A stretch of 64,000 bases of DNA, counting the filler, from Stramenopiles sp. TOSAG23-6 (Eukaryota): the NCBI GenBank assembly GCA_900128565.1. It is 19 parts of 19 records of this genome, joined end to end, with 100 filler letters (N's around TTAATTAATTAA, not from the genome) between each part and the next. Parts side by side here need not be neighbours in the genome. Positions count along the whole stretch, not along the records: positions 1 to 3,317 come from LT637560.1; positions 3,418 to 6,730 come from LT637561.1; positions 6,831 to 10,139 come from LT637562.1; positions 10,240 to 13,547 come from LT637563.1; positions 13,648 to 16,955 come from LT637564.1; positions 17,056 to 20,363 come from LT637565.1; positions 20,464 to 23,769 come from LT637566.1; positions 23,870 to 27,170 come from LT637567.1; 11 more parts are not named here. One strand, given 5' to 3'. The translations under genes were made by a program, and so were the position numbers. Of this stretch, positions 1-64,000 are shown piece by piece. Each line of letters begins with the position of its first letter. Position 1 is the stretch's first letter. The notes beneath the pieces were generated by a model. That model ran no database searches, was not told the DNA's origin, and worked only from the letters and a program-made list of their open reading frames with translations.

Positions 1-183
1 TGCTATTATAAGGGAAACGTATGTACGTTTTCTTTTTGTTTTTCGTACGAAATTTTATACCTAACATTTTTATTTTTTTTATTTTATACCAACAATCTTT
101 TTTAATTTTTTTTTTGCCTATCTTTTTTTTGAAACATTTTGTACCTAATTACAAAAATCTTGTATTATTTTTTCACAATACAT

Positions 184-1382
184 ATTGGCGAAAGTAATTC
201 GCGAAATAATCGATTTTGGGTTAAAGGCAGTATTTACCGAGGTACTACTGAAATAGCAGTGTTTAATAGATTACATATCAATGGTAACGTATGTTTTATC
301 TTTTTTCAATTCCGATTTTTTTTTTTAGTACGAAATTTTGTACCTAACAAATTTTAAGTTTTTTTTTTGAAATATTTTTCCGAAATACATGCTATTTACC
401 GTTTATCTCGCCCATTTGCAAAGTTTCTTTTTGAGAAAGTTTTAAAGCATGAATCTTCATCACCCTGTGGTCAATACCAAGCTCTAGATACTGGTATTTT
501 TATGTATTTTTTTGGGGTCATTTCTCATTCATTTGTTCCATTTCTTTCATATTGGAATCGCAAACGTATGTTTTATTTTTTTTTCAATTTCGAATTTTTT
601 TTTTCGTACGAAATTTTGTACCTAACAATTTTTTTTTTTTGAAATATTTTTCCAAAATACATGTACAGTTTATATGGCAACCATTAAATGCAGAGACAAA
701 AACGACTACATACCTTACATCAAATGAATGCTTTACGAGGAAAGTTTTATTTGGCAGAAATATAATTTTGCAAGAAAATTTAAACTCTACAGATGATAGT
801 GCGGCTATTGGGGGATGGTTATTGAAAAGAAAATTACGCCTATGGACATCGAACTATTTTCGAATTAGTAAAGATTGTGTGGAATGCTACGTATGTTTTT
901 TTTTTCATACGAAATTTTGTACCTAACAAAAAACAAAAAACAAAAAACAAAAATTCAAACGTGTACTATTTTTTTTTTATTTTTTTTATAGGAAACTGTG
1001 TGGATTTGACGATATTTATTTTTTTGTCTACATTTTTTTATAGGAAACTTTGTACCTAACAAAAAATTTTAGAGTTTTTCTTTTAAATTTTTCCAAAATA
1101 TTTTTTTTTTTCGTATGAAATTTTGTACCTAACAATTTTTTTAAGATTTTTTTTGAAAATTTAAAATATTGTTGCACAATAAAGACATCAGAAATGGATG
1201 CAGAAGATCCATTTATTCTACCTCTTAGTAAATATGATATTAAAAAAATGAGCTCTCCACCCGTTCAAAAAAAATGTCGGATTTGCTTATCAAGTGGAAA
1301 AGAGCTTATGGCTGTTGATGTCACACAAGCACATTTATGGGTGAAGTCAATCACAAAACAATGGAATCTCTGTCATGATTGA
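184..1382 (+). CDS. Multi-exon gene fragment with probable C-terminal PH domain
   Basis: Exons are separated by family introns (289-390, 566-662, ~891 onward). The C-terminal part GGWLLKRKLRLWTSNYFRI...AHLWVKSI has a PH-like signature. Confidence 0.5.
289..390 (+). other. Family intron, GT-AT (102 nt)
   Basis: GGT AAC|GTATGTTTT...GAAATACAT|GCT ATT TAC joins the 139 and 367 ORF frames. Confidence 0.7.
566..662 (+). other. Family intron, GT-AT (97 nt, no AG dinucleotide inside)
   Basis: GCA AAC|GTATGTTTT...CCAAAATACAT|GTA CAG TTT ATA TGG. Confidence 0.7.
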
Positions 1383-1791
1383 AGTTTGGTGATGATGTGT
1401 GCAGTAGCTCGATTTTCTTGGTCACTATCACTTGCATTATTTTTATAATATAAAATATAAGATTATAAAATATAAGTATTATTTATCACTATCACTTGCA
1501 TTATTTTTATAATATAAAATATAAGATTATAAAATATAAATATTATTTATTTTTCGATCTTTTTTTTTTAATTTACAAATTCTCTACAAAATTCAGGTAA
1601 TTCTCTTAAGGGTAACTTAACCTAACCCTAAATACAAAAGTGATGTCAACAAATTCCATTTTTTTTTTTTCAATATTGTTTTCAAAAATTGTTGTTTTTT
1701 TTTTAAAAAAAATAATTTTGCAATATTGTTTTCAAAAATTGTTTTTTTCAAAATTTACTGTTTACTTTTTTTTCTCAAACTAATTGGATCA

Positions 1792-3317
1792 TTATTCTTT
1801 GATCTCTGTCGCTTTGGTGGTCTTTGTCGTACATATTTAGTACGAACATGACCATCTGGCACAGAACTGTCCACCTTAAATCCATGTACAATGTATGCAT
1901 TGTGAAAAAATATTTTAAAATTTTTTTACCAAAAAAAAAAAAAAAAATTTGTTAGGTACAAAATTTTCTATAAAAAAAAAACAAATTCGAAATTCATGAT
2001 GAAAATATACATCCTCCATGAGCTGACATTTTCATATGAGGATGGGTTCGATTTTGTATAACTTGATAAGGTCTAAGCCAACACTCCTTCAACTCAACAT
2101 CGATAGCTTGTTTATTTTCTCGGAGCTGTAAATGTAATTCAGATAATGCATTTATTTTTGGAAAATATTTAAAAAAAAAAAAATTAAATTTGTTAGGTAC
2201 AAAATTTTTTTACNNNNNNNNNNNNNNNNNNNNNNNNNNNNNNNNNNNNNNNNNNNNNNNNNNNNNNNNNNNNNNNNNNNNNNNNNNNNNNNNNNNNNNN
2301 NNNNNNNNNNNNNNNNNNNNNNNNNNNNNNNNNNNNNNNNNNNNNNNNNNNTTTTTTTTTTTTTTATATATAAAAAAAAAAAAAAAAAAAAAAATTCAAA
2401 AATAAAAAAAAAAATAAAAAAATAAAAAAAAAATAAAAAAATTCAAAAATAAAAAAATAAAATAAAAAACGTACATTGCGTAAGTATGGATAACAAAAGT
2501 TAAACATTGTTATTGGATCAAATTCACTTGCAATAATAAGACTATCGACTCCTTCAAATAAACATTGTTCAACTCTTTTTTCATCATACTTTGCTCTTTG
2601 AGGTGTACCAGGAGGAAACTTTTTGAATTTTTTTTTATTATGTTGTACATCTTTTTCAGTTTTATTATTTTGTTTAATACTAGTATCATCATCATTTTGT
2701 TTAATACTAGTATCATCATCATTTTGTTTAATACTAGTATCATCATTTTTTACACACCCTGCACTAGGAGGAGGAAGAAAATATTTACAATTTTTACTAA
2801 AAACATCAAAAGGAAAATTCAAAATTGTTTTTTTCCGATCTTCTGAAAGATTTAAAGCCTCCACAAAAGCGGTGGGAGCTCCTTTATAAAAAGCATTCAG
2901 AACGTTTCCAAAACCACCAAGGCGATATGCGACGGAACCATGTATTTTGGAAAAATATTTCNNNNNNNNNNNNNNNNNNNNNNNNNNNNNNAAAAAAAAA
3001 AAAAATTTTTAGGTACAAAATTTTCAAAAAAAAAAAAACGAATTTGAAAAAAAATTAAAACATACAGCAACGAGACCTTGACAACTTTCCACTACTAAAA
3101 TATTTGAACTTGGTTTACAGTTTGAATATGATAATAATTGTGCTAAATTGTCCCATCGTAATCCTTGAATCTTACGCGAATCACGAAGAAATTGATACTC
3201 ACAAAGCGTTCTCGGCGTGCAGCGACACACTCGAATACGTAATACATATTTTTTTTGCTTCTTTTTTATATATTTTTCTTGTGAAAATCTGGTTTTACTA
3301 GCAAATGTTTGACTACC
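1792..3317 (-). CDS. TRM6: tRNA m1A58 methyltransferase non-catalytic subunit TRM6 (5'-truncated, multi-exon)
   Basis: Spliced translation TFASKTRFSQEKYIKKKQKKY...CQGLVA|GSVAYRLGGFG...ECWLRPYQVIQNRTHPHMKMSAHGG|YIVHGFKV matches Gcd10/TRM6 motifs. An internal N gap may hide an exon. Confidence 0.88.
1895..2010 (-). other. Family intron, GT-AT (116 nt) in TRM6
   Basis: GGA GGA T|GTATATTTTC...CAATGCAT|AC ATT GTA gives GGYIVHGFKV; no AG between branch motif and 3' end. Confidence 0.85.
2940..3065 (-). other. Family intron, GT-AT in TRM6 (contains an N gap)
   Basis: GTT GCT|GTATGTTTT...AAAATACAT|GGT TCC GTC gives GLVAGSVAYRLGG. Confidence 0.8.
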
Positions 3318-3417
3318 NNNNNNNNNNNNNNNNNNNNNNNNNNNNNNNNNNNNNNNNNNNNTTAATTAATTAANNNNNNNNNNNNNNNNNNNNNNNNNNN
3401 NNNNNNNNNNNNNNNNN
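3318..3417. other. Artificial contig spacer (N-TTAATTAATTAA-N); recurs about every 3.4 kb (near 6775, 10184, 13592, 17000, 20408, 23814, 27215, 30613, 34008, 37397, 40784, 44165, 47542, 50917, 54290, 57663, 61036)
   Basis: Identical all-frame stop linker flanked by N runs; spacing falls steadily from 3413 to 3373, i.e. length-sorted contigs. Confidence 0.97.
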
Positions 3418-7460: not shown

Positions 7461-9095
7461 ATGAGTCGTTTCGCTAATGTTGTTTCCTCTAAATTACGTA
7501 TCGGTCGGTTCTGTAGTGCATGTAGACAAAATAAAGTATTTCAATTCCGGTCTCTTGGTAGCGTAGTAAAATACCCTCCTCCTCCAATGAAAATGTCACA
7601 AATAGGGAATAACATAAATAGAAATAAGAAACACAATAAGAAAATGTCGGATTCGTTATCTTCAAAGGAACGAACAATTTTAAAACACAATATTGTTCTT
7701 AACGACGTCAATAGTGATTACTGTCGTTCTAGTCAAGAGTGCCAATACATTATTGACAAGTTAGCACCAAAAGCTGGAAAAATACAGAGTACACGTATGT
7801 ATTGTAATCTTGCAAAAATGCTTCTTTTAGAAGGCGACATAAATGCCGCTAGAAATGTCGTATCTTCTCATATATCATCACTGGCTATAGAGTCCAGTAT
7901 TTCATCAGGTACAGATTTTTGTACGAAAAAGTTATTATATCTTTTTGACAATGGAGAATTACAGAAGTTTAGGATTTCTTCAATATTAAAATGGATAAGT
8001 GATGATAAAAAAAGTCTGTTTGGTGTATCTGGATTATTTTCCGCTTTGCAACTTCTTCATACGTTGCATTATAACAAACAAGCAAACACTGATTTGTACC
8101 GAATTTTGATTGATAAATTAGTCACTGTAGATAACTGTGAACGAAATAATATGTCTAACAATGCTACAACAAATACTAACAATGCTATAACAAATATTTC
8201 ATGGACAATTGAATCAGATTATGGTCTTTCATTTTCGATTTATAAAGCTTGTCTTCGAGAAAGAACTGATATACCTATAGGAAATAGACTACTCTCTCCT
8301 ATTATTTCCAACTGTACACATGTATGTTTTATTTTTTTTCAAATTTAATTTTTTTTCGTACGAAATTTCGTACCTAACAAAACAAATTAGATTTTTTTTT
8401 TGAAATATTTTTCCAAAATACATGAAGATGAACAAGGACTAATTCAATTTTCACATTCTGATGAAAGACGAGTCATTGACTTACATGGAGCTAGTCGTGG
8501 TGTTGCAGTTGTTAGAATTACGGATGTACTCATTCAACTACGTCGATATTTCCTTAACCCTAACAGAACTGCGAAATCAGTCATGCCGATATCATTCTTG
8601 GTCGGGTTAGGAATTCATAGTAAAGCAAAAGTAGATCCTGAAAGTAAACTAACATTTAAAGAAATAATTCTACCAAGTGTACTTCGGACGTTTCTTCATG
8701 AAGTCTTGAATCCACCTATTCAAACAAAAGTGAATTTTGAAAATCCAGCGGAGATTGATCTTAATACAACAGATATTGAAAATTGGATCAAGAGTGAACA
8801 AGCTACATTGTGGGAGAAAATTGTCGTCAATTCGTCAGATTTATATAATAGTTATGTAAATGTCACACATTCTGATCAAAAGAAAAGACTAGCATTATTG
8901 TACCAAGAAAAACAGAAATGGGATTCTAAATATGGAGATGGTATGACGTCTACTACATTATATACAAATGATATAAATCCAAAAAGAATGTCTATAACAA
9001 ATTGTAGGAAAAAGTCATCTTCATCATTTGTTTTTTCTCAGTTTCTGAAAAGTATCGAAGAAGGAAAGCAAATAGCTAGAGAAAAACATTTGTAA
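7461..9095 (+). CDS. Smr/MutS2-domain protein, two exons (7461-8321, 8424-9095), possible mitochondrial presequence
   Basis: VIDLHGASRGVA...FLVGLGIHS is an Smr signature; the GT-AT intron 8322-8423 joins NCTH|EDEQ in frame. Confidence 0.7.
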
Positions 9096-10647: not shown

Positions 10648-10683
<36 letters not shown>

Positions 10684-13547
10684 TTTTTAAAAAAAATTTT
10701 TTTCCAAAAAAAAAAAAAAAAAAAAAAAAAAAAACAATTTTCAATGAAACAAATATTTTGACTTTTTTTTGTTTTTTTTGTTTTTTCAAATATTTTTTCA
10801 CAATGTATCTAGTGATTCAATTAGGTGGTTATATTAAAAATGGTATCGATGGAATCACAGTCACTTCTAATGATGATTTTGATGATAATTTTCGTTTTCA
10901 TGAAAATTCATCCTATTTAAATGATAAGAATAATGATGATTTTACTTTTGATTTTAATCATGATTTTAAACATAATGATTATTTTAATGATTATTTTCGA
11001 TTTCTTGAAAATAATAATGATTTTAATAATGATGATGATTTTAATAATGATGAATTTCGATTTGCAATAGAAAAAAAGGAAAAAATGCTTGTTCGAATAA
11101 ATGGTGTTATACTATCAGCAGGAAGTTCAATTGAAAGACAAGTACAGAAAAGCGTTATACAACGATTAACAAAAAAAAAANAAGAAATTCAACAAGAAAT
11201 CAAAGAACAATCAGAAGAGGGTAATGGTAATGGTGATGATGATGGTAATGATGATGGTAATGGTAATGATGATGGTCATGGTGATGATGAAGAAGATAAT
11301 GAAGATAATGAAGCTAATGATGATAATGATGATAATGATGATAATGATGAAGAAGAAGATGATAAAAAATTTCAATATGCAATAATGACACATAATTTCC
11401 CACCAATTGGTAAAACGTATGAAAATCAATTAAAAGTGAACAAAAATGATATAATTTTCATTCTTGAAGAATATAAAAGTGGAGCTAGTGAAAGATGGAG
11501 TCTGGCAATGACAATTGATAAAGAGAAAACAGGTTATGTAGCACAATCATTTTACAACATTATAACAAAAGAAGAAGCAGACATAAAATTAGATGAGGCT
11601 AAACAAGAAAAAGCAGCAATGGTTATTCAGTCTGCTTATCGTGATCGTCAAGCAAAAGCAAAACAAAATGAAGCAGCTATGGTTATTCAGTCTGCTTATC
11701 GTGATCGTCAAGCAAAACGAAATGAAGCAATCGCAGCTGCAGAACAAGCAGCTAATGATTCCGACACCGCTGGTGGTGGTACTGGTGGTGGTACTACAGA
11801 TGGTGGTGATTCCGGTAGTACAGATGGTGCAGATGCTGGTGGTAGTACACTACCACAAAAAACAAACCAACCACAGGCACCTGGTGATTCCGGTGATTCC
11901 GGTAGTACAGATGATACAGATGGTGATGGTGATGATGATGAAGAAGAAGATAATGATGATGAAGAAGAAGATGAAGAAGAAGAAGATGATGAAGAAGAAG
12001 ATGATGATGAAGAAGAAGAAGAAGAAGAAGGAGAAGAAGGAGGAGGAGAAACTACTCCTGTAGATGATGATGTTGATGTTGCTGATTCTCCAGCAGAAGA
12101 AGGCATTGGTGATGCTGATGGTGGTGAAGAAGGTGGTGGTGAAGAAGGCAAAGAATCTGTTGGCAATGCAGTTAGAACAGATCAAAAAAAAAAAGATGGT
12201 GTTGTAAATACAAAACGTATTCTTATTCTTGGAATGAGTTCTGGTGAGTATACACGGACACACCGACCTGATACGCCATTACGTGAGAGTTTCAATATTC
12301 CAGCGGATCAACATATTGAAATTTATTTCATTGATGATGTATGTTTTTTTTTTTTTTTTNAAAAAAATCGAATTTNTTTTTTGTTTTTGGTTTCATACGA
12401 AATTTTGTACCTAACAAATTTTTTTCAATTTTTTTTCAATTTTANTTTTTTTTTTTTNGTTTTTTTTTNGTAAAAAAATTTTGTATCTAACAAATTTTTT
12501 TTTTAGTAAATTTTTAAATATTTTTTCAAAATACATGGAACAGCTTCTGGTGGAGACGGTCCAGGTAAAGTGAAAGACAAAGCATGGTACAACGCTCGCA
12601 AGTCTGGATCTTCAGAGCCCGACACAATGGACAACAAGACAACACTTTTTGATTACATTGGCAAATTTGACAATTTACCAAAAGATTTTACAAACAATTT
12701 CTTTGATTTCATCTTAAATGATTGGTCGACAAGCAAATTTTTTCCTCCAGGATTTGGCCTTGTCCTTCAAAACTTACTACGACAAGGAGGCCAAATACAC
12801 ATGCAAGATATACTGCCAAAAGTGCCATATGGTTCAGGTCCCGGGGCGAGGTGTATGGATTCTAACCAAGAGAAGTTGCAACCTCCTAATCAATATGTCA
12901 TGTTATCTCAAACGATAGGTGGTGGACCTATTTACTGCATAGTAACAAATGATACGACAGTCTGGGATTTGAAGGTTGGAGTTATAACATTAAAAAACCC
13001 TGATCAATCAGCCACCAGCTACGATTCGATTATTGATATGGCAAACAATAGCAACTTACCAAATAATACTGTGGTGAAGGATATGAAGAAGAAGGTGGGA
13101 TTCATGTTTTTCCCAGGCACTCCTTTTACCGTCGGTGGAATGTCCTTTGAGGATTTTACAAAAGGTGGTGGTATGAATCAACGAATACCTTTTGAAACAT
13201 ATCCATTGGCTTCTTCTCGTTTAAAAAAAGCCGGTCATGAAGCGAAAAATTATGTTCAATTTGCTGCTACTGTAGATGGTGCTGCTACTGGTGGTGCTGC
13301 TGTTGATGGTGATGCTGCTGGTAAGAATCCAGCAAAACCAAATGCAGCTGCAGAACAAGCAGCTAATGATTCCGACACTGCTGGTGGTGGTGGTGGTGGT
13401 GATGCCGGTGATGCCGGTGGTGGTGCTGGGCCTGCTGGTGATGGGTCTGCTGGTGCTTCTCCAGCAGTAGAAGAAGAAGAAGAAGAAGATGCTGGTGATG
13501 GTGATGGTGATGCTCCTCCAGCAGTAGAAGAAGAAGAAGAAGAAGAA
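10240..13547 (+). CDS. Multi-exon fragment: SH3 domain, two IQ motifs, acidic low-complexity tracts (copy 1)
   Basis: SH3-like YAIMTHNF...QLKVNKNDII...RWSLA...KTGYVAQSFY and AAMVIQSAYR x2; the GT-AT intron 12339-12536 joins IDD|GTASGG in frame with the 12570 ORF. Confidence 0.75.
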
Positions 13548-14055: not shown

Positions 14056-14091
<36 letters not shown>

Positions 14092-17463: not shown

Positions 17464-17499
<36 letters not shown>

Positions 17500-21398: not shown

Positions 21399-22286
21399 TT
21401 AATTGACAAGTTCAATAGATTTAATATTTTTAATTCCCTGTTGTTCAAGTCGATTCCTCATTTATTTTGGAAAAATATTTAAAAAAAAAAAAAAAAATTG
21501 TTAGGTACAAAATTTCCTATGAAAAAAAAAAATCAAAATTCAATTTTGAAAACGTACATTGTGTCCAAATCATTCGCAGAAATCCCAAGATCATTCTTAA
21601 TTTCTTCAACTGACTGGCTTCCATCGTCATATATGACTAAAACTCTTCGGCATTTATTTTGAAGAAATATGTAAAAACGTGAATTTTATGAGAATTTTTG
21701 AAAAAAAAAAAAAAAATTTTTGAAAAAAAAATTTTTTTTTGAAAAAAAAAAACAACCCTAACCCTAAAAACCCTAAAAACCCTAAAAACCCTAAAAACCC
21801 TAAAAACCCTAAAAACCTAAATTACAACAAATTCATAGTAAAAACCTACATGTTGTGTTCTCTAGCCAACCTTCACCTCCTGATATATGCCATGCATTCC
21901 TCATCATTAACTCGAAGTAATCATCATCGTCAATGGAGGCACTGATATCTCGATAATATTCGGCAAATTCATCGGGGGTGATTACACCACTCTTTTTTGT
22001 AGAAAAATATTTCAAAAAAAAAAATTGTTAGGTACAAAATTTCCTACGAAAAAATTTTTTTTTTCCGAAAAAAAAAAAAAAAAAAAAAAAAACATACATC
22101 ATCTTTATCCCACTGATGAGCAAAGTGTTGCAAAGCTTCTTCCTCGGTTTTTCTTCCCGATAAAACGTCCGGATGTTGTGAACAATCATAAATGTTTTTG
22201 ATATCTTCCAATGTAACTGTACCATCACAATTATTATCAAGTAAATTATATGCTTTTGTGACAAAAGACATTCTCCTTTCATTCAT
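21399..22286 (-). CDS. Calcyphosin-like EF-hand Ca2+-binding protein, 3' exons
   Basis: EF-hands DNNCDGTVTLEDI and DKDD|SGVITPDEF; SASIDDDDYFELMMRNAWHISGGEGW...NTT|CRRVLV. Introns 21992-22097 (GT-AG), 21652-21849 (GT-AT), 21460-21557 (GT-AT). Confidence 0.85.
21756..21820 (+). repeat. Telomere-like CCCTAA / CCCTAAAAA tandem array inside an intron
   Basis: CCCTAACCCTAAAAA followed by further 9-bp units. Confidence 0.8.
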
Positions 22287-27388: not shown

Positions 27389-29081
27389 TTGAACGGTTGG
27401 CGTGAAATGTCACTTTCATTGGCTGATCCATATATATTGCCACCAAATCCTCTCCAACCATACATGTCAATTTTGCTTCTTGAGGATAGAAACATGTATG
27501 TTTTTTTTTTTTTTTAAATTTGAAATTGAATTTATTTTTTTATAAAAAGTTTGTACCTAACAAATTTTGAAATATTTTTGAAATATTTTTCCAAAATACA
27601 TTATATTAGATTCTTTTCCATTTCATTCATCCGATAATTTAAGACAACTCGTAATTAGTTCGGATCCAATGAAAAATTTCCACGATTTACAATTGGAAAC
27701 GGGAATACCTTTGGCACAATTGTATCGACTTGCAGCTCATTTGTTATACTGGGGTAAAGCTAGAGTTATTAAAAAAATAAGTAAAGATAGTATATATAGA
27801 ATGGATTTATCGGCAACTGCTGACACTGGGGGTTATGTATGTTTTACTGTTTTTTTTTTGGATGAATTTTTTTTTCGTACGAAATTTTGTACCTAACGAT
27901 TTTTTTTGTTTTTGCAATATTTTTCCAAAATACATGGAAGTTCTAGTGTTGCGACTGCCTTGGGTCTTGAACGTGCAAGTGCTATTTATCCTACGGAAAT
28001 TCTAGTTCCAACATCCCCTTTACTTGCAAAGTTTACTCTTGTACATTTTCATTATGAATTTCAATATGTTTTTTTCGTAGAAAATTTTGTACCTAACGAT
28101 TTTTTTTTTCGTAAAAAAAAAAAAAAATATTTTTCACAGTACTCAGTTTCCCTGAATACCCTGGTGAATTTTTTTTCGTAGAAAATTTTGTACCTAACGA
28201 TTTTTTTTTTCGTAAAAAAAAAAAAATATTTTTCACAGTACTCAGTTTCCCTGAATACCCGGGTGAATTTCTGCATACACTTTTACAGCGTTTTGCTGGA
28301 GGTAAGCGAGTGTCGGAATTATTGTCTGAGCTTAGCGATCGCCAACAAGTTTCATTTATTAATATGTTGGTTTGGTTGTTGCAGAATAGGTGTACGTTTT
28401 CATCAGTAATTTTAATTTTTTTTTGGTACGAAATTTTGTACCTAATGATTTTTTTTTTTTGGATGTATTTTTTTATTTGTCATTTCAATTTTTGTTTTAT
28501 ACCAAATTCAATTACCTAACAAATTTCAATAAAGGTAAAAAATATTTTCCCAAAATACATGTCTAATTGAAGTGAACGAATATATTCATTTAAGAATAGA
28601 GCCATCTGCTCGAAGTCGTGGTATGTCTTTTGATTTTGGAACACGAAATATGAATAATGATAGGAAATTGAACCATTCTATAGAGAGACAAATTCGAAGA
28701 TTTGAAACAAATATGAAACTAACTGGATCTCGTGTGTCTCGTTTGTTCTGGCAAATGCTCCTAGGCATATCAAATAAACGTAATAGAGGTAGAGATCAAA
28801 TGAAAAATATGAGTTCTGGTAATAATAAATATGATAGTCGTGTGCAGTCAACTTCGAAAAAAGGTGCACGTCAACAAAGTGAGGCTACAAAAAATATGAA
28901 AACTTCGCTAGATGGATTTTCATCAGGATCGTTTAATGGCTCTCGGGATTTTGAAGAAATTATGTGGCGAGAAGGCGTTAGTCGTGCAGAGCTTATGCTT
29001 GTACTAAATAAGTATAAAGGAATTCTTTTAACAGTGCGACATCCAGAGCCGTGCATTATAAGCAAACCAATAATAAACTGA
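27389..29081 (+). CDS. NPRL3: GATOR1 subunit NPRL3-like, 3' exons
   Basis: PYMSILL, TGIPLAQLYRLAAHLLYWGKARVI, MLVWLLQNR|CLIEVNEYI and FNGSRDFEEIMWREGVSR match Npr3/NPRL3 motifs; several GT-AT introns. Confidence 0.8.
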
Positions 29082-29155: not shown

Positions 29156-30508
29156 TCATCTTCGGAATTTACTGGAACTTTTTCTTAAAATTCTACGAAT
29201 TTTCAATAAATTGGATAATTCTTCAGTCATCTTTTGCATTTCATTGCGCTTTTCATCTATAGTAACTAGTATTTTTGGTTTACCCAGACGACCACGATGA
29301 ATACGCCATGAAATTAAATGTTGTTTCATAAATTTTGAAAAACTATCTTCGATCTCTTGTAGAATTTGTTCATGTTGTCTAGCCGCAGATAGTCTAGCTC
29401 TAGACCATACTAATTGGACATTTTCCAATGAAATAAAATCTGTATTTTCTTCTACATTATTTTCAGTATCTTTAGGAATACAAGGACCACAATCGTACAT
29501 GGAGATGAATGGTGAAGTATACAATACTGGTTGGGCAGTCACAAGTGCTTTGCTATGATCTGAAAATGTTTTCGGACTTTTTGGCATTGGATTATACTTT
29601 GAACTTTGAAAATTATTTTTTGTGTTATTGCTCATTATTGAAGCACTCCTATCCAGACCAATACTTCTAATATCACTAATTACTGGAACCCCAAGATTTG
29701 TTGGAATAATTTTGCTTACACCACCGAATTTTTTACCCGCTTCTAAGAGGGATTTCCAAGGGGTACTCATTCCATCATTTGCTGGCTTCCACGTGTATGT
29801 ATTGTGAAAAAATATTTTACATTCAAATATGTTGTTAGATACAATTTTTGGTACAANANAAAAAAGGTAAAAAAGTCAATTTTGAAAACGTACATTGAAT
29901 GATAAATTCAGGTAAAACATTTGCTGGCTCAAATATCAAGTATTCTTCTTGTGCTGGTGAATACATTGCATCAAATGCTGATGTAGATTTCATTGTTGGG
30001 AACCCTTTATAGTCTCTAGATGTAACGAAAAGTCGTTTTATAATAACTCTACATAGTGCTATATATCTTACTTTGTCTTTAGTACTATTTACATTGGAAG
30101 TATTTCCTGTAGTTTTATTCTCTAATAAAGCAACTCTTTCGTCATCTAGAGTTGAGTATCGTGAGAACATTGATGGGAAAGTGACAGGATGACTTTTGTT
30201 TACCTGATCTTTTGCATATGGCAATGTATCATCTTCTTGACTGTTTCCTGCACCATACCAAGATTTTCGAAATATAGTTTTTTTTTCCTTTTTTATTGAA
30301 GAAACATTCTCATCCTTTGTATCTACAGCGTCTTTGTTCATTTTAGAACCAAACCCATACACAATAACATGTTCTAAACTTTCAGGAGCAATAGTGCAGA
30401 ATAGACCTTTTACTTTGCCCTTCTCCATTAATCCCACACGTGTCTGAAAATCATCTAAAGATATTGAATTTTCAACTTTAAAAACATTTAAAACATTGAA
30501 CCCTTCCA
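29156..30508 (-). CDS. Protein with PARP-catalytic-like segment, last two exons (29894-30508, 29156-29796)
   Basis: IALCRV...EEYLIFEPANVLPEFIIQ|Y resembles the end of a PARP fold; the GT-AT intron 29797-29893 joins CAA T|AC ACG in frame with the 29156 ORF. Confidence 0.6.
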
Positions 30509-33592: not shown

Positions 33593-33924
33593 TTAAGCAT
33601 AATGTAATTTTCCATTCATCACATCATTCAAATCACCTGGATTAATGTTACTACCTGATACTACACAAACAATTCTTTTACCAGTTACTTTTTGAGATAG
33701 TACAGCAGCTATACCTGCACATGTATTTTGGAAAATAATTCAAAAAAAATCGTTAGGTACAAAATTTCGTACGAAAAAAAATTCAAATTGAAAAAAAATA
33801 AAACGTACAACCCGAAGTTTCGCAAACGAAACCAAATGAATACATTAACTTTGTTGCTGCTACTAAATCTTCATCCGTTACGAGGACAACTTGATCAACA
33901 AATTCTTTGCAATGCGAATACGTA
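33593..33924 (-). CDS. PLP-dependent threonine dehydratase / serine racemase family, last two exons (not in ORF track)
   Basis: Spliced CKEFVDQVVLVTDEDLVAATKLMYSFGFVCETSG|CAGIAAVLSQKVTGKRIVCVVSGSNI matches the fold-type II C-terminus; intron 33721-33807. Confidence 0.82.
33721..33807 (-). other. Family intron, GT-AT (87 nt, contains no AG)
   Basis: TCG GGT T|GTACGTTTT...CCAAAATACAT|GT GCA GGT preserves ExSGxAGIAA spacing. Confidence 0.85.
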
Positions 33925-37607: not shown

Positions 37608-38053
37608 TCTCATCATGTCCGTAGGTTTTCTTGGGTCAAGTTCCCCAACAATGGCAACATTTTCTCCTCTAACTACATTTATTTTGGAAAAATATTTCAA
37701 AAAATCTAAAAAAAATTGTTAGGTACAAAATTTCGTACGAAAAAAAAAAATCGATTTTTTTTTATCGGAAAAATAAAAATAAAACATATATATAAACCCA
37801 AAGGAATGTCAGCATAGTTGCGGCCTGCATATCGACGCTCGTACGTATCTTCAAGTACAAAATTCGTAAATTGATCAAAACTACGTAACAACCCTACTAA
37901 GTGACGGCCATCTTGCAATATAAGAATGACTTTTTTATCTAACTGTTCCACAAGACTGCATGTTCCAGGAAGTGTCGCAGGAGTACGCGGAGGTGGTAAA
38001 ATAGGTGGCATCATAGGCGGTATCATGTTCCCTACTGGCATTTCCACAGACAT
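37608..38053 (-). CDS. LSM1: Sm-like protein LSM1 (3'-truncated)
   Basis: SLVEQLDKKVILILQDGRHLVGLLRSFDQFTNFVLEDTYER...DIPLGLY|VVRGENVAIVGELD. Confidence 0.92.
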
Positions 38054-40704: not shown

Positions 40705-40739
<35 letters not shown>

Positions 40740-43644: not shown

Positions 43645-44004
43645 GCTGGTTTGGTTGGTGAATATCTTCTTGAACATTTTGCTCGTGTTCCAGTTGAGGT
43701 GGAGTATGCCTCTGAATTCCGGTATAAAAATCCTATTTTGAATAAGGAGACTGACGTTGTGTTTGTAATATCTCAATCTGGTGAAACGGCAGGTATGTTT
43801 TATTTTTTTTTTTTTTCCGGTAAAAAAAAATCGAATTTTTTTTTTTATAAAAATTTTGTACCTAACGAATTTAAAAGTTTTTTTTTTCACAATACAGATA
43901 CTTTAGCTGCAGTTAGACTTGCGAATGAATGTGGAGTATTAACTATTGGTGTCGTAAATACTGTTGGGTCAACAATCGCTCGTGAAACTACAGGTGGAAT
44001 ATAT
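43645..44004 (+). CDS. glmS: Glutamine:fructose-6-phosphate amidotransferase, SIS domain exons
   Basis: [30 protein letters not shown]...[13 protein letters not shown]...[12 protein letters not shown]; intron 43793-43897 (GT-AG, family body). Confidence 0.92.
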
Positions 44005-44286
44005 GTATGTTTAATTAGGGTTAGGGTTTTGGGTTTTTTTCAAATTCCAATTTTTTTTTTCATACGAAATTCTGTACCTAACAAAAAAAAAAAAAAAAAA
44101 AAAAAAATATTTTTCCAAAANNNNNNNNNNNNNNNNNNNNNNNNNNNNNNNNNNNNNNNNNNNNTTAATTAATTAANNNNNNNNNNNNNNNNNNNNNNNN
44201 NNNNNNNNNNNNNNNNNNNNACTTAAATTTGTTAGGTACAAAATTTCGTATGAAAAAACAAATTCGAAATTGAGATGAAAACGTAC

Positions 44287-46535: not shown

Positions 46536-47689
46536 GTATGTTTTATTTTTTTTCAATTTCGAATTTATTTTTTTTTCATACGAAATTTCGTACCTAACAA
46601 AAACACAAACAAAAATATTTTTTCACAATACATAATCAACAGAATGCAAAATATGATTCATCCCCAGTCCCCATCTTTTACATTATATTTGATACAAGCT
46701 TCATTTGAACCTCTTCAGGGTATGTACGTTTTCATCATGAATGTATTTGTTTTTTTATTGGTATGAAATTTCGTACCTAACGATTTTTTTCATNATNTCT
46801 TGTTTTTTTTTTTCACGATACATTGGAAATGCTTGGGCGTATGGCTTAAATACAAGATTAATATTTAATTGGGTAAGATATTGTGGTAGGAATACATCGA
46901 TTAACGAACGTGGTTTTCTGAAGCGAAATTGTTATAATTGCATTCGCTGTGGTTGTATGTTTTTCATTGTAAATTTAAATTAATTTGATTTTTTGGTATA
47001 GAAAATTTCGTACGTAACAAATTCAAAAGACCAAAATGTTAGCCCTAACCCTAACGTTAACCCTAACCCTAATATATTTTTTCACAATACTTCTTGTTTG
47101 AAAGATAATGCGAGACGATGGAGTCAGTCTGATTCATTGGATGCTTCAGATGATGCTAGCAATACTACGACTGGAGAACCTTTTATTATGTGATATATCT
47201 TGTGAAGAATATTTTTTTTATTTTGTATTTGTTAGGTACAAAATGTGGTACATTTTTTTTTTGTATTAGTAATCGAAATTTAATTTATCTGAAAGGTTTT
47301 TATTGTTCATTTATCAAATCTGGACCTGGACAAACGTTTTGAAATAAAAATCCTAATAATTATAGTACTAATAAATAATGAGATTCCATACCGTTTTTTT
47401 GTAATTGATAACAACCCATAAAATATAATAAAATATAATAGAAAAATATTTTATTATTTGAAATTCTCTGTCGTCTTGAAAGATTGGCTACTTTATANNN
47501 NNNNNNNNNNNNNNNNNNNNNNNNNNNNNNNNNNNNNNNNNTTAATTAATTAANNNNNNNNNNNNNNNNNNNNNNNNNNNNNNNNNNNNNNNNNNNNCAA
47601 AAAGAAAAAAAAAAAAAATGATGATTTCAATTTTTTTTTTCATAGTAAATTTTGTACCTAAGAAAAACAAAAACAAAAAAATAACATAC

Positions 47690-50972: not shown

Positions 50973-51004
<32 letters not shown>

Positions 51005-51082: not shown

Positions 51083-51627
51083 GAGATTTGGTCCTGATGT
51101 CGAATGGGTTTTGGGTAATGATAAGAGTAATAGCCTATCAAATATAGAAGTAGATTATTCTGTAGATGTTGGTTTTCATCATGAATTTCAAATTTATTTT
51201 TTTCGTATGAAATTTTGTACCTAACGATTTTTTATTAAAACAATATTTTTGACAGTACATCCCTCTCGATCTGAAAGTTTTTATTCTGAAATACGAAAAT
51301 ATTGGCCAAATATTCAAAATGGTTCCCTCCTCCCTGACTATTCTGGTATAAGACCAAAACTAGTACCAAGTGGCACTCCAGCAGCAGATTTTAAAATTTG
51401 GTCGGGAAAAGAATATGTACTTTTTCAAAATTAAATTTTTTACTATTTTTTTTTTCATACGAAATTTCGTACCTAACGATTTTTTTATACAATATTTTTT
51501 CACAATGTATAATATAAAAAAAAATATACAACGAGATTTCAGTGGTCTCGTTAATTTATTTGGAATTGAATCTCCAGGATTAACTTCATCAATGGCTTTA
51601 GCTGATGCTACTTTTGAAGCTTTATAA
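51083..51627 (+). CDS. L2HGDH: L-2-hydroxyglutarate dehydrogenase-like FAD oxidoreductase, 3' exons
   Basis: RFGPDVEW...DYSVD|PSRSESFYSEIRKYWP...PDYSGIRPKL...GLVNLFGIESPGLTSS; GT-AT introns 51168-51260 and 51417-51510. Confidence 0.88.
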
Positions 51628-60300: not shown

Positions 60301-60991
60301 TATGCATTTGTTTGCTTCGTGTTCTCTTAATTCATTTACGCGAGTTTTCAATTGAAGCATATACTTCATTTCAATAGATTTGATACGATTTGCATGTTCC
60401 ACTTTTGTGTGCTGGCAATTAGCATTGTGCCTCTGAATCTCCGCTTTTGCAAGAAATGTTTTTAAACTCAATATTTGTTGACGTAAAAGTAAAAGTGTGT
60501 TTTTTTGCTCTTTGGGTGCAGTTTCCATCATATGCTTGTGGTGATTTTCTGCGTCCTCTGCATCATAAAGAGTTTTACTTAGCTTCTTTTCCAATTGCAT
60601 TGTCTTCTGTGTCTCTATTTTCAATTTTACTTTCAACTTTTCTCGAATTTCTTCTATATATTTATTATCATTACCTATTTGAATTTGAAGTGCTACTTTT
60701 GATTTCTCCGTCAAGTTTTGAATTCTTTTAATCCATGAATCATTCATTGTATCAATATCATTCGTTTTCGTGATTTCATAATGCATTGTCTGTGTATCAA
60801 TTGTGAATTCAGGAGACACTTTTAACAATTTGTCAACCCAAGTTTTTCTAAAAGCATCATCAATTATTTTTTGTGATTCTTTCTGTTCGCGAGCATCATG
60901 TATTTTGGAAAAATATTCAAAAAAACAATTAAATTTGTTAGGTACAAAATTTCGTATGAAAAATAAATTCGATTTTTTTGTAAAAAAAAAA
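54346..60991. repeat. Two identical contigs (54346-57618, 57719-60991): assembly redundancy
   Basis: Identical including N positions; separated by a linker. Confidence 0.93.
54440..57526 (-). CDS. Long coiled-coil protein, internal exon (copy 1; break near 56810-56845 lies in low-quality sequence)
   Basis: K/E/Q/L-rich heptad ORFs of 214 and 810 aa flanked by family introns. Confidence 0.75.
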
Positions 60992-61177
60992 NNNNNNNNN
61001 NNNNNNNNNNNNNNNNNNNNNNNNNNNNNNNNNNNTTAATTAATTAANNNNNNNNNNNNNNNNNNNNNNNNNNNNNNNNNNNNNNNNNNNNTTTCAAAAA
61101 AAATCTAAAAAAAATTGTTAGGTACAAAATTTCGTATGAAAAAAAAAATTAAATTAGAAATTCATATAAAGCATACA

Positions 61178-62570: not shown

Positions 62571-62673
62571 ATGGATTATGAAAAAATATTTCAAAAAAAA
62601 AAAAAAATGTTAGGTACAAAATTTCGTATGAAAAAATAAATTCGAAATTGAAAAAAATAAAAATAAAACATAC

Positions 62674-63410
62674 ATTCTTATTTGTTCCTTATTGTACTTG
62701 TTAATTGATAAATTTCTAAGAGCTCGAGCAGCCTGTACTAAAAGTTCTACATTTTTTGTTTTCGCTGCTTCTATGATTGGTTCAATTCCACCCGCCAATC
62801 CAATTGATTTTTCATTTTGGTCGTCTACTGCTAGGTTGGCTAACGCAGCTATCGCCTCTATGCAAACATTTTCATTAGTCGATGAACTTAATTTTATAAG
62901 TGGCTCTATTCCGCCACACTCTGATATTTTCAATTTATTTTGAGCATTCACGCCTAAATTTGCTAAAGCTTTTGCAGACTGTTGTTGGATCTGTTCAGAA
63001 GTTGAACTGAGCAGTGTAATCAACATTTCTATGCCTCCCTCTTCCGCCATTTTAGTTTGGTTTCCGGCATTTACTGAAAGGTTTGCTAATGCGTGTACAG
63101 CAAGTCGCTGTACTTCTATATCTTCAGACCGAGTCAGAGGTAATAGTAAAGAAAGTCCATCGTGTTCGACAATTTGAACCTGTCTGTTTGGTTTCACTGC
63201 TTCATTCGCTAGTTGTTCGGCAACCTCACGCTGCAAAGTTAAATCTGCCGCATCTCCGTAGGTGATCATTCTTTTCAAGTGCAACGTTAGTTGTTCGATA
63301 TCTTCTTCGTCGCCAGTATCTTGATGATTCTTAACCCATTCATTCGCTCTATAACTATTTTTACTCTCTTTAGATTCATTGCGTTTCAATAACTTTTTAA
63401 AGCGCTTCAT
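62674..63410 (-). CDS. Armadillo-repeat protein (Vac8-like), first exon
   Basis: Repeats EVQRLAVHALANLSV, GGIEMLITLL, AKALANLGV, AARALRNLS. Confidence 0.9.
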
Positions 63411-63666
63411 TTCATTGAAATTGGATACTTCCTATTATGTAGTACAGGGAGGTAGACAAAATAGCGTTTCAGTTTCTACGTCACATCTCCGACGGAGATT
63501 TTCATAAAATTTGAAAAATAAATTATTCACAGAAAATCACAAAAAGTTGGATGTCATAACACTTGACACTTCATGAGAGAACTATCTTTTTATTTTTATT
63601 CTGAAGCTTATTTCAGGCAAAAATAATGGTTTTATGGGTATACAAACTAATGCTAAATACAAAGTC

Positions 63667-63948
63667 TTAACAGGATTCTAACTTCCACCTACGCAGGCAG
63701 CAATCACCACCGGCTGTGACGAAGGTATCTTCACTTGTCCACATAATATGATTAGCGCCTCCAAAATGTGTATCTTCTTTCTTACACCGTTTTTTTATAT
63801 CTTTTGGTGATTCAACATTCCATAAAATGATCTGATCATCAATTCCCGTCGACGCTACATATTTTCCCGAAGGTGACCATGCTACAGATGTAACAGCAGA
63901 TCTATGAGCTATCCATATACCTTCAACAATTTGCTTTCCAGAAGCGCC
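63667..63948 (-). CDS. WD40 protein last exon, WDR1/AIP1-like
   Basis: WIAHRSAVTSVAWSPSGKYVAS...IILWNV...FVTAGGDCCLRRW*. Confidence 0.7.
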   Translation of the reverse strand, partial: GASGKQIVEGIWIAHRSAVTSVAWSPSGKYVASTGIDDQIILWNVESPKDIKKRCKKEDTHFGGANHIMWTSEDTFVTAGGDCCLRRWKLESC

Positions 63949-64000
63949 ATGTATTTTGGAAAAATATTTCAAAAAAAAATCGTTAGGTACAAAATTTCGT

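What the first reader, a model, noticed from the sequence alone, without database searches (positions are those of the whole stretch)
1..64000. Genome-scale family of non-canonical GT-AT introns (introner-like): the 3' splice site is AT, not AG
Seen: almost every gene is interrupted by the same ~90-120 nt element ending in (C/A/T)AT. Conserved motifs are restored with an AT end: TRM6 GG|YIVHGFKV (1895-2010) and GLVA|GSV (2940-3065), threonine dehydratase ETSG|CAGIAA (33721-33807), L2HGDH DYSVD|PSRS (51168-51260), calcyphosin NTT|CRRV, PARP-like PEFIIQ|Y and NPRL3 QNR|CLIE. All three intron phases occur. Several introns (566-662, 33721-33807) contain no AG at all. The 5' end (GTAYG) and CTAAC branch motif look spliceosomal. 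Established: spliceosomal introns are overwhelmingly GT-AG; introner elements mass-produce introns; lineages dominated by non-canonical introns are rare (euglenids, Fritillaria, Amoebophrya). Inference: this organism splices GT-AT as its majority class, implying altered 3' splice-site recognition. I do not know of a described GT-AT-dominated genome but cannot search to confirm.
Basis: partly seen in the sequence, partly recalled or inferred. Interest (0 to 1): 0.95.

Follow-up and report, generated by a model that had tools for sequence, protein, structure and literature searches.

The report
Repeated mobile introns ending in AT
A marine protist's genes are riddled with copies of one ~100-base mobile intron that appears to be cut out at GT...AT instead of the near-universal GT...AG, which would make it a natural experiment in how cells recognise intron ends.

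Summary
The window is 19 short contigs joined by linkers. 18 of them carry a ~100-nt element: 71 nhmmer hits, and its 11-mer core occurs 50 times against 0.02 expected. The element begins GTAYGT, holds TTGTACCTAAC, and ends (C)AT. It lies in the sense direction of flanking ORFs (44 sense, 5 antisense, 16 unclear of 65).

Removal at GT...AT is supported on several lines:
- It restores gap-free alignment to homologues at TRM6 GLVA|GSV and GG|Y|IVHG, where the split codon gives the Tyr present in nearly all aligned homologues.
- It does the same at calcyphosin NTT|C|RRVLV.
- Reading frames fit in 15 of 18 decidable junctions.
- Internal AG acceptors hit an early stop in 7 of 9 cases.
- One poly(A) metatranscriptome contig skips an intron, but read literally its joint lies 2 nt from GT...AT.

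Two to three introns of the same kind end in AG. A database name places the organism in MAST-3 marine stramenopiles. That public gene model reads through the element. No searched paper describes this.

Verdict: an introner family with a non-AG 3' end. The exact nucleotide and the machinery remain unproven.

The parts
289..390 (+). family intron, GTATGT...ACAT, phase 0
   Evidence: Full-length nhmmer hit. The frame runs 52 codons upstream and 83 downstream. Its internal AG gives a stop after 3 codons.
566..662 (+). family intron with no AG; the frame does not fit
   Evidence: The upstream frame is ambiguous. An indel in a T7 run of the exon is one possible cause (inference).
891..1184 (+). composite intron made of 3 degenerate copies, ending in AG (GT-AG)
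   Evidence: The copies are. Read by hand from the sequence, the phase-0 frame continues after the AG at 1184, not after the ACAT at 1188.
1895..2010 (-). TRM6 intron, GTATAT...GCAT, phase 1
   Evidence: The split codon T|AC gives the Tyr of the GGY motif of homologues, with no gap in the alignment.
2150..2474 (-). TRM6 intron region with a 138-N gap, ending AAAT
   Evidence: Exon C aligns to human TRM6 residues 408-451 from its third residue on, so the AG further downstream is not the acceptor. About 12 conserved residues are missing here, probably an exon that was not assembled.
2940..3065 (-). TRM6 intron, GTATGT...ACAT, phase 0
   Evidence: GLVA|GSVAYRLGG aligns without a gap to 45 homologues. 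Exon A matches human TRM6 residues 132-213.
8322..8423 (+). family intron, phase 0
   Evidence: 289 and 223 open codons on the two sides. Its internal AG would also keep the frame open.
12339..12536 (+). double-copy intron, phase 0 (also present in the two duplicate contigs)
   Evidence: 385 and 337 open codons on the two sides. Its internal AG gives an immediate stop.
21460..21557 (-). calcyphosin intron, GTACGT...AAAT
   Evidence: An RNA contig matches up to 21557 and then runs on for 26 letters that do not fit the DNA. Alignment to P0126 runs across the junction without a gap (my reading).
21652..21849 (-). calcyphosin intron, GTAGGT...AAAT, holding telomere-like repeats
   Evidence: RNA contig X8 record 20 joins 21848 to 21649. 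ENTT|C|RRVLV aligns to homologues without a gap.
21992..22097 (-). calcyphosin intron, family-like, probably GT...AG
   Evidence: Sequence. The EF-hand spacing argument is my inference. RNA contigs stop matching 6 nt upstream, at 22104; this is unexplained.
27837..27935 (+). NPRL3 intron with no AG, phase 0
28392..28560 (+). NPRL3 intron (QNR|CLIE)
   Evidence: The frame fits. Its internal AG gives a stop after 10 codons. The NPRL3 HTH domain lies downstream.
29797..29893 (-). family intron with no AG, phase 1
   Evidence: 211 and 212 open codons on the two sides.
33721..33808 (-). Thr-dehydratase intron with no AG, phase 1
   Evidence: The upstream exon aligns to 3iau_A residues 280-318 and ends at ETSG. 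The frame fits.
37677..37789 (-). family intron starting ATATGT (AT...AT?)
   Evidence: The frame fits at these limits.
43793..43897 (+). family intron ending ACAG (GT-AG)
44225..44286 (-). 5' part of a family intron at the end of the PDK gene, cut off by the contig end
   Evidence: The public gene model P0001 translates straight through it.
46536..46633 (+). family intron; GT...AT gives a stop codon
   Evidence: The frame fits if the second GT (+4) is the donor, or if the intron ends 1 nt earlier.
46724..46823 (+). family intron with no AG, phase 2
51168..51260 (+). intron in an FAD-oxidoreductase (L2HGDH-like) gene, GTTGGT...ACAT
   Evidence: The downstream exon aligns to 3dme_A from its first residue, 286. 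The frame fits.
51417..51510 (+). intron in the same gene, GTACTT...GTAT
62571..62673 (-). family intron in an Arm-repeat gene; the frame does not fit GT...AT

Best explanation
The elements are an introner family: a short mobile sequence that has multiplied through the genes of a MAST-3 marine stramenopile, roughly one copy per kilobase in this window. Each copy brings its own intron signals.

Signals carried by each copy:
- A strong 5' splice site, GTATGT or GTACGT.
- A yeast-like branch motif, TTGTACCTAAC.
- A T-rich tail.
- A conserved 3' end, ...CCAAAATACAT.

How it most likely works:
- Copies sit after an exonic AT, so each reads AT|GT....AC-AT|. This is the pattern a small transposon leaves when its ends are GTAT...ATAC and it duplicates a 2-bp AT target.
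- The pre-mRNA is cut before the GT and after the second AT. That removes the element plus one AT and restores the original reading frame.
- I infer that the cutting is done by the major spliceosome. It would have to accept U instead of G as the last intron base, while still accepting AG in a few introns.

Shown here: the family, its orientation, its ends, codon-exact removal at several junctions, and the absence of one intron from a poly(A) RNA contig.

Inferred: the exact nucleotide of the cut, the spliceosomal mechanism, and the transposon origin.
For: Family:
- 71 nhmmer hits.
- The 11-mer core occurs 50 times against 0.02 expected.

Orientation: 44 sense, 5 antisense and 16 unclear of 65 hits.

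Ends:
- GT at 27/27 5' ends and AT at 32/36 3' ends.
- The exon base pair before the GT is AT in 19/27. Chance probability is 1e-13 at a dinucleotide frequency of 0.10.
- The first exon base after the intron is G in 19/36, P=3e-7.

Codon-exact removal:
- TRM6 GLVA|GSVAYRLGG aligns without a gap to 45 homologues.
- TRM6 GG|Y|IVHG: the split codon gives the Tyr that nearly all aligned homologues have.
- Calcyphosin ENTT|C|RRVLV aligns without a gap.
- TRM6 exons match human TRM6 residues 132-213 and 408-451.

Frames: of 22 junctions, 15 fit, 3 do not and 4 are undecidable (plus my reading). P(>=15 of 18 at 1/3) = 1.9e-5.

AG is not the acceptor:
- 12 of 26 curated introns have no AG at all.
- Of 9 introns with an AG between the branch motif and the end, that AG leads to a stop within 14 codons in 7. 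The AT end keeps 29 to 200+ codons open in all 9.

RNA and DNA runs:
- X8 record 20 (207 nt, 0 mismatches) joins 21848 to 21649 and leaves the DNA again at 21557.
- DNA contigs of X3 run from exon into intron at 21831-21988 and 22859-23450. So the introns are present in DNA and absent from that RNA.
- Table 3 lists no variant at the terminal AT (20566/20567) of the element copy on which the very many related contigs of four runs were laid.

Structure: no conserved end-pairing; consensus energy is -0.17 kcal/mol.
Against: - The one RNA junction, read literally, is ...ACATGT|CGAAG. That is an AG...GC intron, 2 nt to the right of GT...AT. It fits GT...AT only if that strain has T for C at 21650, a synonymous third-codon position. 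Contigs of the same run differ from the window at 3 of 173 bases elsewhere.
- Two RNA contigs stop matching at 22104, which is 6 nt before the expected donor of the next intron.
- Three junctions do not keep the frame under GT...AT: 566-662, 46536-46633 (gives a stop) and 62571-62673.
- An automatic version of the frame test was weaker: of 15 'clear' pairs, 9 fit, 4 were off by one and 2 were off by two. Two of the misses were mis-paired ends and one was a short last exon.
- At most junctions a shift of 1 nt (TG...CA) gives the same mRNA, so homology cannot fix the nucleotide.
- There are 4-7 other AT dinucleotides between the branch motif and the end used. 'AT' alone cannot define the site.
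- No snRNA or splicing factor could be examined.
Confidence: 0.68

Rival explanations
1. The elements are removed from RNA, but not at a fixed GT...AT. Boundaries would shift from copy to copy (AG...GC, GT...CA, AT...AT), as in the non-canonical introns of Amoebophrya, hemistasiid diplonemids or euglenids, possibly by a machinery that does not read terminal dinucleotides.
For: - The only RNA junction seen is literally AG...GC.
- The match stops at 22104 in two RNA contigs.
- Two long-ORF junctions need a different boundary.
- 37677-37789 starts with AT.
Against: - The ends are strongly conserved: GT 27/27 and AT 32/36. Those other lineages show no consensus (PMC12621601 section read; PMC7789003 passages).
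- No end-pairing structure is conserved.
- A +2/+2 shift would replace the Tyr present in nearly all aligned TRM6 homologues by Cys, and the conserved Gly (and my reading).
- The deviating base is a synonymous C/T site, so a strain difference is plausible.
Confidence: 0.15
2. The introns are AT...AC introns. The cut would lie 2 nt to the left: ATGTATGT...ATAC. They would be removed like U12-type or U2-type AT-AC introns.
For: For the 19 of 27 copies preceded by AT, this reading gives the same mRNA. AT-AC is a known natural pair (recalled; also stated in PMC12621601 Introduction).
Against: - 8 of 27 copies lack the upstream AT, and the AC is less conserved than the final AT (25/36 against 32/36).
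- In TRM6 the reading gives CT...AC at 2940-3065 and AT...GC at 1895-2010. It would also put Asp where none of the 45 homologues has it.
- The 5' end is GTATGT, not ATATCCTT, and the branch motif lies 32-62 nt from the end. The U12 consensus and its short branch distance are recalled.
Confidence: 0.05
3. The elements are cut out of the DNA (programmed elimination, like the TA-bounded eliminated sequences of ciliates), and the RNA is copied from the cleaned DNA.
For: Precise removal between two short direct repeats (AT...AT) resembles ciliate eliminated sequences (recalled).
Against: - Copies carry splice-like signals and are co-oriented with genes. DNA excision needs neither.
- DNA contigs of an independent metagenome keep the introns (X3 records 5 and 8).
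- No DNA contig with a clean joint was listed, but most rows of that table were not shown.
Confidence: 0.03
4. The elements are not removed at all. They would be insertions in decaying genes, or artefacts of amplification and assembly.
For: The assembly is fragmentary with many N. The public gene model reads through an element. Many contigs end inside elements.
Against: - Independent DNA and RNA runs hold the element.
- Conserved proteins are restored exactly when it is removed.
- An RNA contig lacks an intron.
- Elements contain stops in frame: ORFs end inside them.
Confidence: 0.02

Closest known systems
Introner elements of Micromonas, Aureococcus, dinoflagellates, fungi and others (Gozashti et al. 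2022, PMC9860276, passages read; Huff et al. 2016, recalled)
   Same: Many near-identical short introns in unrelated genes. Short terminal inverted ends and a repeated flank. One splice site carried by the element, the other at or in the duplicated target. Removal restores the mRNA.
   Different: The families described there use GY-AG. The survey methods take annotated introns and treat AG and AC as the possible 3' ends (PMC12130899 passage), so a GT...AT family would be missed. Here the 3' end is AT in 32/36 copies.
Non-canonical introner elements of Amoebophrya (Farhat et al. 2021, PMC7789003, passages read)
   Same: A marine protist in which most introns are non-canonical. Repeated introns with direct and inverted repeats. 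Transposon-like spread.
   Different: Amoebophrya has no dominant dinucleotide pair, 8-20 nt inverted repeats that form hairpins, and variable cut positions. Here there is one fixed pair, canonical 5' and branch signals, and no conserved hairpin.
Non-canonical introns of Fritillaria and other tunicates (Henriet et al. 2019, as cited in PMC12621601; PMC13326754, listing and start of abstract only)
   Same: A major-type spliceosome is thought to process a majority of non-GT/AG introns.
   Different: The tunicate ends are highly diverse and the 5' GT is lost too. They are animals and do not have a single repeated family.
Nonconventional introns of euglenids and hemistasiid or eupelagonemid diplonemids (Thakur et al. 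2025, PMC12621601, sections read; PMC6221363 passages)
   Same: Abundant non-GT-AG introns in marine flagellates, first suspected from single-cell genomes without RNA.
   Different: Those lack conserved borders and rely on pairing of the intron ends. Here the borders are conserved and no pairing is conserved. The organism is a stramenopile, not a euglenozoan.
U12-type introns with variable 3' ends, including rare GT-AT (recalled; PMC1557818 seen only in the search listing)
   Same: The 3' terminal dinucleotide can be something other than AG.
   Different: The U12 5' site and the branch site close to the 3' end are absent here.

Membership tests
Introner elements | Many introns in unrelated genes share sequence along their whole length | tested here: met
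   71 nhmmer hits. Alignment of 15 full copies. Host genes include TRM6, NPRL3, calcyphosin, PDK, Thr dehydratase and others.
Introner elements | Copies lie in genes, in the sense direction, and are spliced out | tested here: met
   Orientation 44/5/16 of 65. Codon-exact removal at 3 junctions by homology. One RNA contig skips an intron whose ends are like the family's and leaves the DNA at the donor of a family copy.
Introner elements | Signs of transposition: target duplication and terminal inverted repeats | tested here: inconclusive
   The 5' flank is AT in 19/27, matching the terminal AT. The ends GTAT...ATAC are inverted over 4-8 bases. Because the AT is the same in all copies, a duplication cannot be told apart from a target preference.
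Introner elements | Recent gain: the intron is absent at the same position in relatives | not tested
U2-type (major) spliceosomal intron | GT (or GC) at the 5' end with a U1/U6-type consensus | tested here: met
   GT in 27/27 copies, GTATGT or GTACGT in most.
U2-type (major) spliceosomal intron | Branch motif of the CTRAY type upstream of the 3' end | tested here: met
   CTAAC in 24 of 26 curated introns, 32-62 nt from the end.
U2-type (major) spliceosomal intron | AG at the 3' end | tested here: not met
   AT in 32/36 and AG in 2/36. 12 of 26 curated introns have no AG. Internal AGs lead to an early stop in 7 of 9.
U2-type (major) spliceosomal intron | Removed by U1/U2/U4/U5/U6 through a lariat | not testable with these tools
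   No whole genome is held. No snRNA is in the window. No raw reads were available.
U12-type (minor) intron | 5' end [AG]TATCCTT, and a TCCTTAAC branch site about 10-20 nt from the 3' end (consensus recalled) | tested here: not met
   The 5' end is GTATGTTTT. The branch motif lies 32-62 nt from the end.
Euglenozoan nonconventional introns | No conserved borders; stable pairing of the two intron ends | tested here: not met
   The borders are conserved. The consensus fold has 4 pairs and -0.17 kcal/mol.
Amoebophrya-type introner elements | 8-20 nt inverted repeats forming a hairpin, 3-5 nt direct repeats, variable cut sites | tested here: not met
   The inverted ends cover only 4-8 bases, the direct repeat is 2 bases, and the ends are fixed.

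The most novel reading that the evidence does not exclude
A whole eukaryotic lineage (MAST-3 marine stramenopiles) has a major spliceosome that uses U rather than G as the last intron nucleotide for about nine in ten introns. A transposon that duplicates an AT target would have seeded on the order of ten thousand introns, each of which can only be removed precisely by cutting after that AT. The machinery that reads the 3' splice site would then have co-evolved with the mobile element.
Probability: 0.5. Interest if true: 0.92.

Novelty: new variant of a known kind. Interest (0 to 1): 0.85.

Why it matters
The AG at the end of introns is among the most constant signals in eukaryotic gene expression. 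Known exceptions are either rare introns or genomes in which the borders have become chaotic. A genome where one uniform non-AG end (AT) goes with textbook 5' and branch signals would isolate a single variable: the last intron base. That makes the recognition of the 3' splice site directly testable, through U2AF, Prp8, step-2 factors, and the pairing of the first and last intron bases. It would also show that a mobile element can impose a new splice-site rule on its host.

There are practical consequences:
- Standard gene finders fail on this genome. The public model of the PDK gene reads through an element.
- Gene counts, completeness scores and functional inferences for these abundant uncultured ocean flagellates are therefore likely to be too low.
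- Introner surveys that start from annotated GY-AG introns would not see such families.

Tried and rejected
Rejected ideas:
- Diplonemid origin. I first suspected a single-cell genome of a marine diplonemid, where non-canonical introns were predicted in 2016 (that paper itself is not held). The best hits to the PDK gene are stramenopiles, and the identical one carries a MAST-3-type label.
- Base-calling artefact (AT read for AG). Table 3 lists no variant at the terminal AT in four runs from other years.

Searches and calls that gave nothing:
- Whole genome: none held.
- Rfam on the window: 0 matches.
- TRM6 exon B word search: no hit.
- PDB or Pfam searches with short exons: no hit for TRM6 exons B and D, Thr-dehydratase exon B, or oxidoreductase exon A.
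- Transcripts of the same species. The metagenome scan with calcyphosin exon 1 gave only 7 loci at 43-46% identity, and none holds the element. The protein search with exon 2 gave 21 fragments at 68-89% identity, none identical.
- The element core in viral contigs: 0 matches.

Limits on the RNA evidence:
- Read laying could be run only once and on a single contig, because the linker pieces between contigs are too short. Most of its joint and loose-end rows were not shown.
- Parts of that contig without RNA cover say nothing.

Literature (supplements are closed):
- located the MAST genome papers. Seeleuthner 2018 has 0 'splice' and 0 'non-canonical'. Labarre 2021 has 0 'intron'. The Incisomonas 2025 paper has 0 'intron' and 0 'splice'.
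- GT-AT with stramenopile: nothing relevant. GU-AU: 2 irrelevant papers. Introner with MAST: none. 'introners' with 'GT-AT': 0 papers. Nanomonadea with intron: 11 papers hold both terms, none of the 10 listed relevant by title or abstract start.
- Supplementary tables of these papers, which I could not see, might list splice sites.

Full report
WHAT THE WINDOW IS
The 64 kb is not one locus. Eighteen linkers of the form N44-TTAATTAATTAA-N44, spaced 3.37-3.41 kb apart, join 19 contigs in order of falling length.
- Contigs 10240-13547, 13648-16955 and 17056-20363 carry the same ORF pattern. So do 54346-57618 and 57719-60991. I dropped the later copies from all counts.
- GC content is 23-40%.
- No whole genome is held.

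THE ELEMENT IS REAL
- A script search for the core TTGTACCTAAC with up to one mismatch found 74 places. The exact 11-mer occurs 50 times against 0.02 expected from shuffles.
- A profile built from 15 full copies finds 71 hits at E<=1e-3, and 65 after removing the duplicate contigs. 18 of the 19 contigs hold at least one copy.
- The consensus is GTATGTTTTAT..TTTCAATTTCGAATTT..TTTCGTACGAAATTTTGTACCTAACAA..TTTTGAAATATTTTTCCAAAATACAT.
- In 26 introns that I delimited by hand, length is 88-198 nt. The branch-like CTAAC lies 32-62 nt (median about 41) from the 3' end.
- Many contigs end inside a copy, as expected when a repeat breaks an assembly.

THE ENDS
Counts for profile-defined ends in non-duplicate contigs:
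- 27 of 27 5' ends begin with GT.
- 32 of 36 3' ends finish in AT: 25 ACAT and 7 other NNAT. Two finish in AG and two in TT.
- The two exon bases before the GT are AT in 19 of 27. Chance probability is 1e-13 at the window's AT frequency of 0.10.
- The last exon base is T in 24 of 27.
- The first exon base after the intron is G in 19 of 36, P=3e-7.
So a typical copy reads AT|GTATGT....ATAC-AT|G. This is what a small element with inverted ends GTAT...ATAC and a 2-bp AT target duplication would leave. Because the AT is the same everywhere, a duplication cannot be told apart from a target preference. The introner survey I read makes the same point for AG (PMC9860276).

THE COPIES BEHAVE AS INTRONS
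- Orientation. Of 65 hits, 44 are flanked by a long ORF on their own strand, 5 on the other strand and 16 are unclear. Most of the 5 are short-exon genes that the crude rule misjudges, such as the Thr-dehydratase and oxidoreductase genes.
- Frames, by hand. Of 22 junctions, the best upstream frame joins the best downstream frame under GT...AT in 15. One of these, 24340-24472, uses an AT two bases before the aligned one.
  - Three do not fit: 566-662, 46536-46633 and 62571-62673.
  - Four cannot be decided: 9265-9358, 20469-20567, 21460-21557 and 22285-22419. The last seems to lie between two genes.
  - Sources: plus my reading. P(>=15 of 18 at 1/3) = 1.9e-5.
- Frames, automatic. This version was weaker. 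Of 15 pairs it called clear, 9 fit, 4 were off by one and 2 were off by two. Two of the misses were wrongly paired ends and one was a short last exon.

THE ACCEPTOR IS NOT AN AG
- Twelve of the 26 curated introns contain no AG at all.
- Nine have an AG between the branch motif and the end. Using it leads to a stop within 14 codons in 7 of the 9, and keeps the frame only at 8322-8423 and, for 31 codons, at 51168-51260. The AT end keeps 29 to more than 200 codons open in all 9.

RESIDUE-LEVEL TESTS
TRM6:
- The TRM6 exon 3066-3317 matches human TRM6 (5ccb_B) residues 132-213 at E=9e-16 and the Gcd10p family.
- With that exon I fetched 150 homologues. I aligned 45 of the 76 that are 380-560 residues long with the window protein spliced at GT...AT.
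- Junction 2940-3065 reads ESCQGLVA|GSVAYRLGGFG with no gap. One homologue has EQCGGLVTGSVAYRLGGFG.
- Junction 1895-2010 reads MSAHGG|Y|IVHGFKV with no gap. The split codon T|AC gives the Tyr that nearly all aligned homologues have in their GGY or SGY motif.
- A shift of both cuts by +2 would give Cys there and would remove the conserved Gly at the other junction. A shift by -2 would put Asp where none of the 45 homologues has it.
- Exon 2011-2149 aligns to human residues 408-451 from its third residue on. So the AG 24 nt downstream of the AAAT end is not the acceptor.
- The intron before that exon holds a 138-N gap, and about 12 conserved residues are missing. I read this as an exon that was not assembled.

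Calcyphosin: 21 related fragments align as ...GGEGW.ANTTC[RK]RVLV..., matching ENTT|C|RRVLV without a gap.

Other genes:
- The Thr-dehydratase exon ends at ETSG, opposite residue 318 of 3iau_A.
- The oxidoreductase exon after 51168-51260 aligns to 3dme_A from its first residue.

WHICH NUCLEOTIDES?
Homology fixes the mRNA, not the cut. Wherever a flank repeats, neighbouring cuts give the same product. The allowed pairs are:
- 2940-3065: TG..CA, GT..AT, TA..TG.
- 1895-2010: AT..GC, TG..CA, GT..AT.
- 21652-21849, given the caveat below: AT..AA, TG..AA, GT..AT, TA..TG, AG..GT.
Only GT...AT is common to all three. It is also the pair that is conserved across copies. The upstream AT and the AC before the final AT vary more. 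Where the upstream AT is changed it is mostly to AAC, which in the frame used is synonymous with AAT (289-390; for 566-662). That is what is expected if this AT is exon and the downstream AT is the splice signal. It argues against an AT...AC reading.

RNA EVIDENCE
Ten runs hold parts of the stretch. Three of them are seawater metatranscriptomes. I could lay runs only once and on one contig.
- Supporting: X8 record 20 is a 207-nt contig of a poly(A) library. It matches 21935-21848 and then 21649-21557 with no mismatch and no letters between, and runs on for 26 unlaid letters. It therefore lacks the intron and leaves the DNA again at the donor of the next, family, intron. The one extra matched base there is the G shared by intron start and next exon.
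- Supporting: DNA contigs of an independent metagenome (X3 records 5 and 8) run from exon into intron. An RNA-library contig (X8 record 21) does too.
- Not fitting: read literally, the joint is ...ACATGT|CGAAG, which is an AG...GC intron. GT...AT predicts ...ACAT|GCCGAAG, one base different. The two agree only if that strain has T for C at 21650. That is a synonymous third position of the Cys codon. Another contig of the same run differs from the window at 3 of 173 bases. No DNA of that strain covers the site (table 2).
- Not fitting: X8 record 22 and X6 record 14 both stop matching at 22104. That is 6 nt before the GT of the next intron, which by sequence looks like GT...AAAAAG. I cannot explain this. 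I could not see the unlaid letters.
- Across the very many related contigs laid on the copy at 20469-20567, table 3 lists no variant at the terminal AT. Loose ends pile up at 20467 and at 20567-20569, which are the limits of the repeated unit including the flanking AT.

EXCEPTIONS INSIDE THE FAMILY
- 43793-43897 ends ACAG and its frame fits.
- The composite intron 891-1184 continues the frame after AG, not after the ACAT 4 nt further on (my reading).
- 37677-37789 starts ATATGT, and its frame fits at that limit.
- At 46536-46633, GT...AT creates a stop. At 62571-62673 it shifts the frame between ORFs of 252 and 197 codons. Both would fit if the second GT of GTATGT (+4) were the donor, or if the intron ended one base earlier. 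I have no evidence to choose between these.

STRUCTURE
A consensus fold of 15 copies gives 4 pairs and -0.17 kcal/mol with no covariation. The end-pairing that marks euglenozoan and Amoebophrya non-canonical introns is therefore not a feature here.

THE ORGANISM
- The PDK-like ORF 44235-45611 has as best hit a EukProt coding sequence labelled GSMAST32.... It is identical apart from an annotated 22-residue gap.
- The next hits are diatoms, Ectocarpus, Nannochloropsis and other stramenopiles at 37-51% identity.
- So the organism is a MAST-3 lineage marine stramenopile.
- That public model translates straight through the element at 44286-44241 (...GLPMYVFISISNLFFHTKF). Standard annotation therefore did not recognise these introns.

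COMPARISON WITH WHAT IS KNOWN
- This works like an introner family (PMC9860276) and meets its defining features, except that transposition marks are ambiguous and recent gain is untested.
- It differs from every described introner family I could read about in its 3' end. It differs from the genomes dominated by non-canonical introns (Amoebophrya; hemistasiid diplonemids; tunicates, listing only) in having one fixed pair with canonical 5' and branch signals.
- It is not U12-like (the U12 consensus is recalled).
- I found no description in the held library. Supplements were closed, and subscription papers are mostly not held.

VERDICT
This is a real introner family with a non-AG, most probably AT, 3' splice site, and it dominates the introns seen in this window.
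- The exact cut: confidence about 0.7.
- The spliceosomal mechanism and the transposon origin: inferences.

Noticed in passing
window 1-64000 (linkers at 3318-3417, 6731-6830, and so on to 60992-61091): The window is 19 contigs of 3.3-3.4 kb, sorted by length and joined by N44-TTAATTAATTAA-N44 linkers. It is not a continuous locus.
   Followed up: yes
10240-13547, 13648-16955, 17056-20363; 54346-57618, 57719-60991: Near-identical contigs are present three times and twice. They differ mainly in where single N bases stand. They may be alleles, copies from different cells, or redundancy in the assembly.
   Followed up: partly
44241-44286 and 45231-45296 (minus strand): The public gene model P0001 of the PDK-like gene translates through the element. 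It also removes an in-frame 66-nt GT...AG stretch inside an open ORF, which may be a false intron.
   Followed up: partly
21770-21840 (minus), 44020-44045, 40945-40960, 42270-42290, 1615-1630: Telomere-like repeats (TTAGGG, GGTTTTTAGGG) lie inside or beside introns.
   Followed up: no
28054-28237: A unit of about 101 nt is duplicated in tandem. It is made of the 3' half of an element plus a short unique piece, lies inside the NPRL3 gene region, and ends ...CACAGTACTCAG rather than ...ACAT.
   Followed up: no
3366-6782 (minus): A 1138-codon open frame in the only contig without the element. It is GC-richer (40%) and looks repetitive.
   Followed up: no
22098-22110 (minus): RNA contigs of a strain about 98% identical to the window, from two runs, stop matching at 22104. 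That is 6 nt before the expected donor GT.
   Followed up: partly
22285-22419 (minus): This copy sits between the end of a membrane-protein ORF and the ATG of the calcyphosin ORF. Splicing at GT...AT would leave a stop one codon later. It may be an intron in an untranslated region or between two genes.
   Followed up: partly
20464-20574 in runs X3, X6, X8, X9: Summed depth on one element copy is enormous in both DNA and RNA libraries (about 134,000 in X3 and 35,000 in X8). The family, or relatives of it, is very abundant in seawater samples.
   Followed up: no
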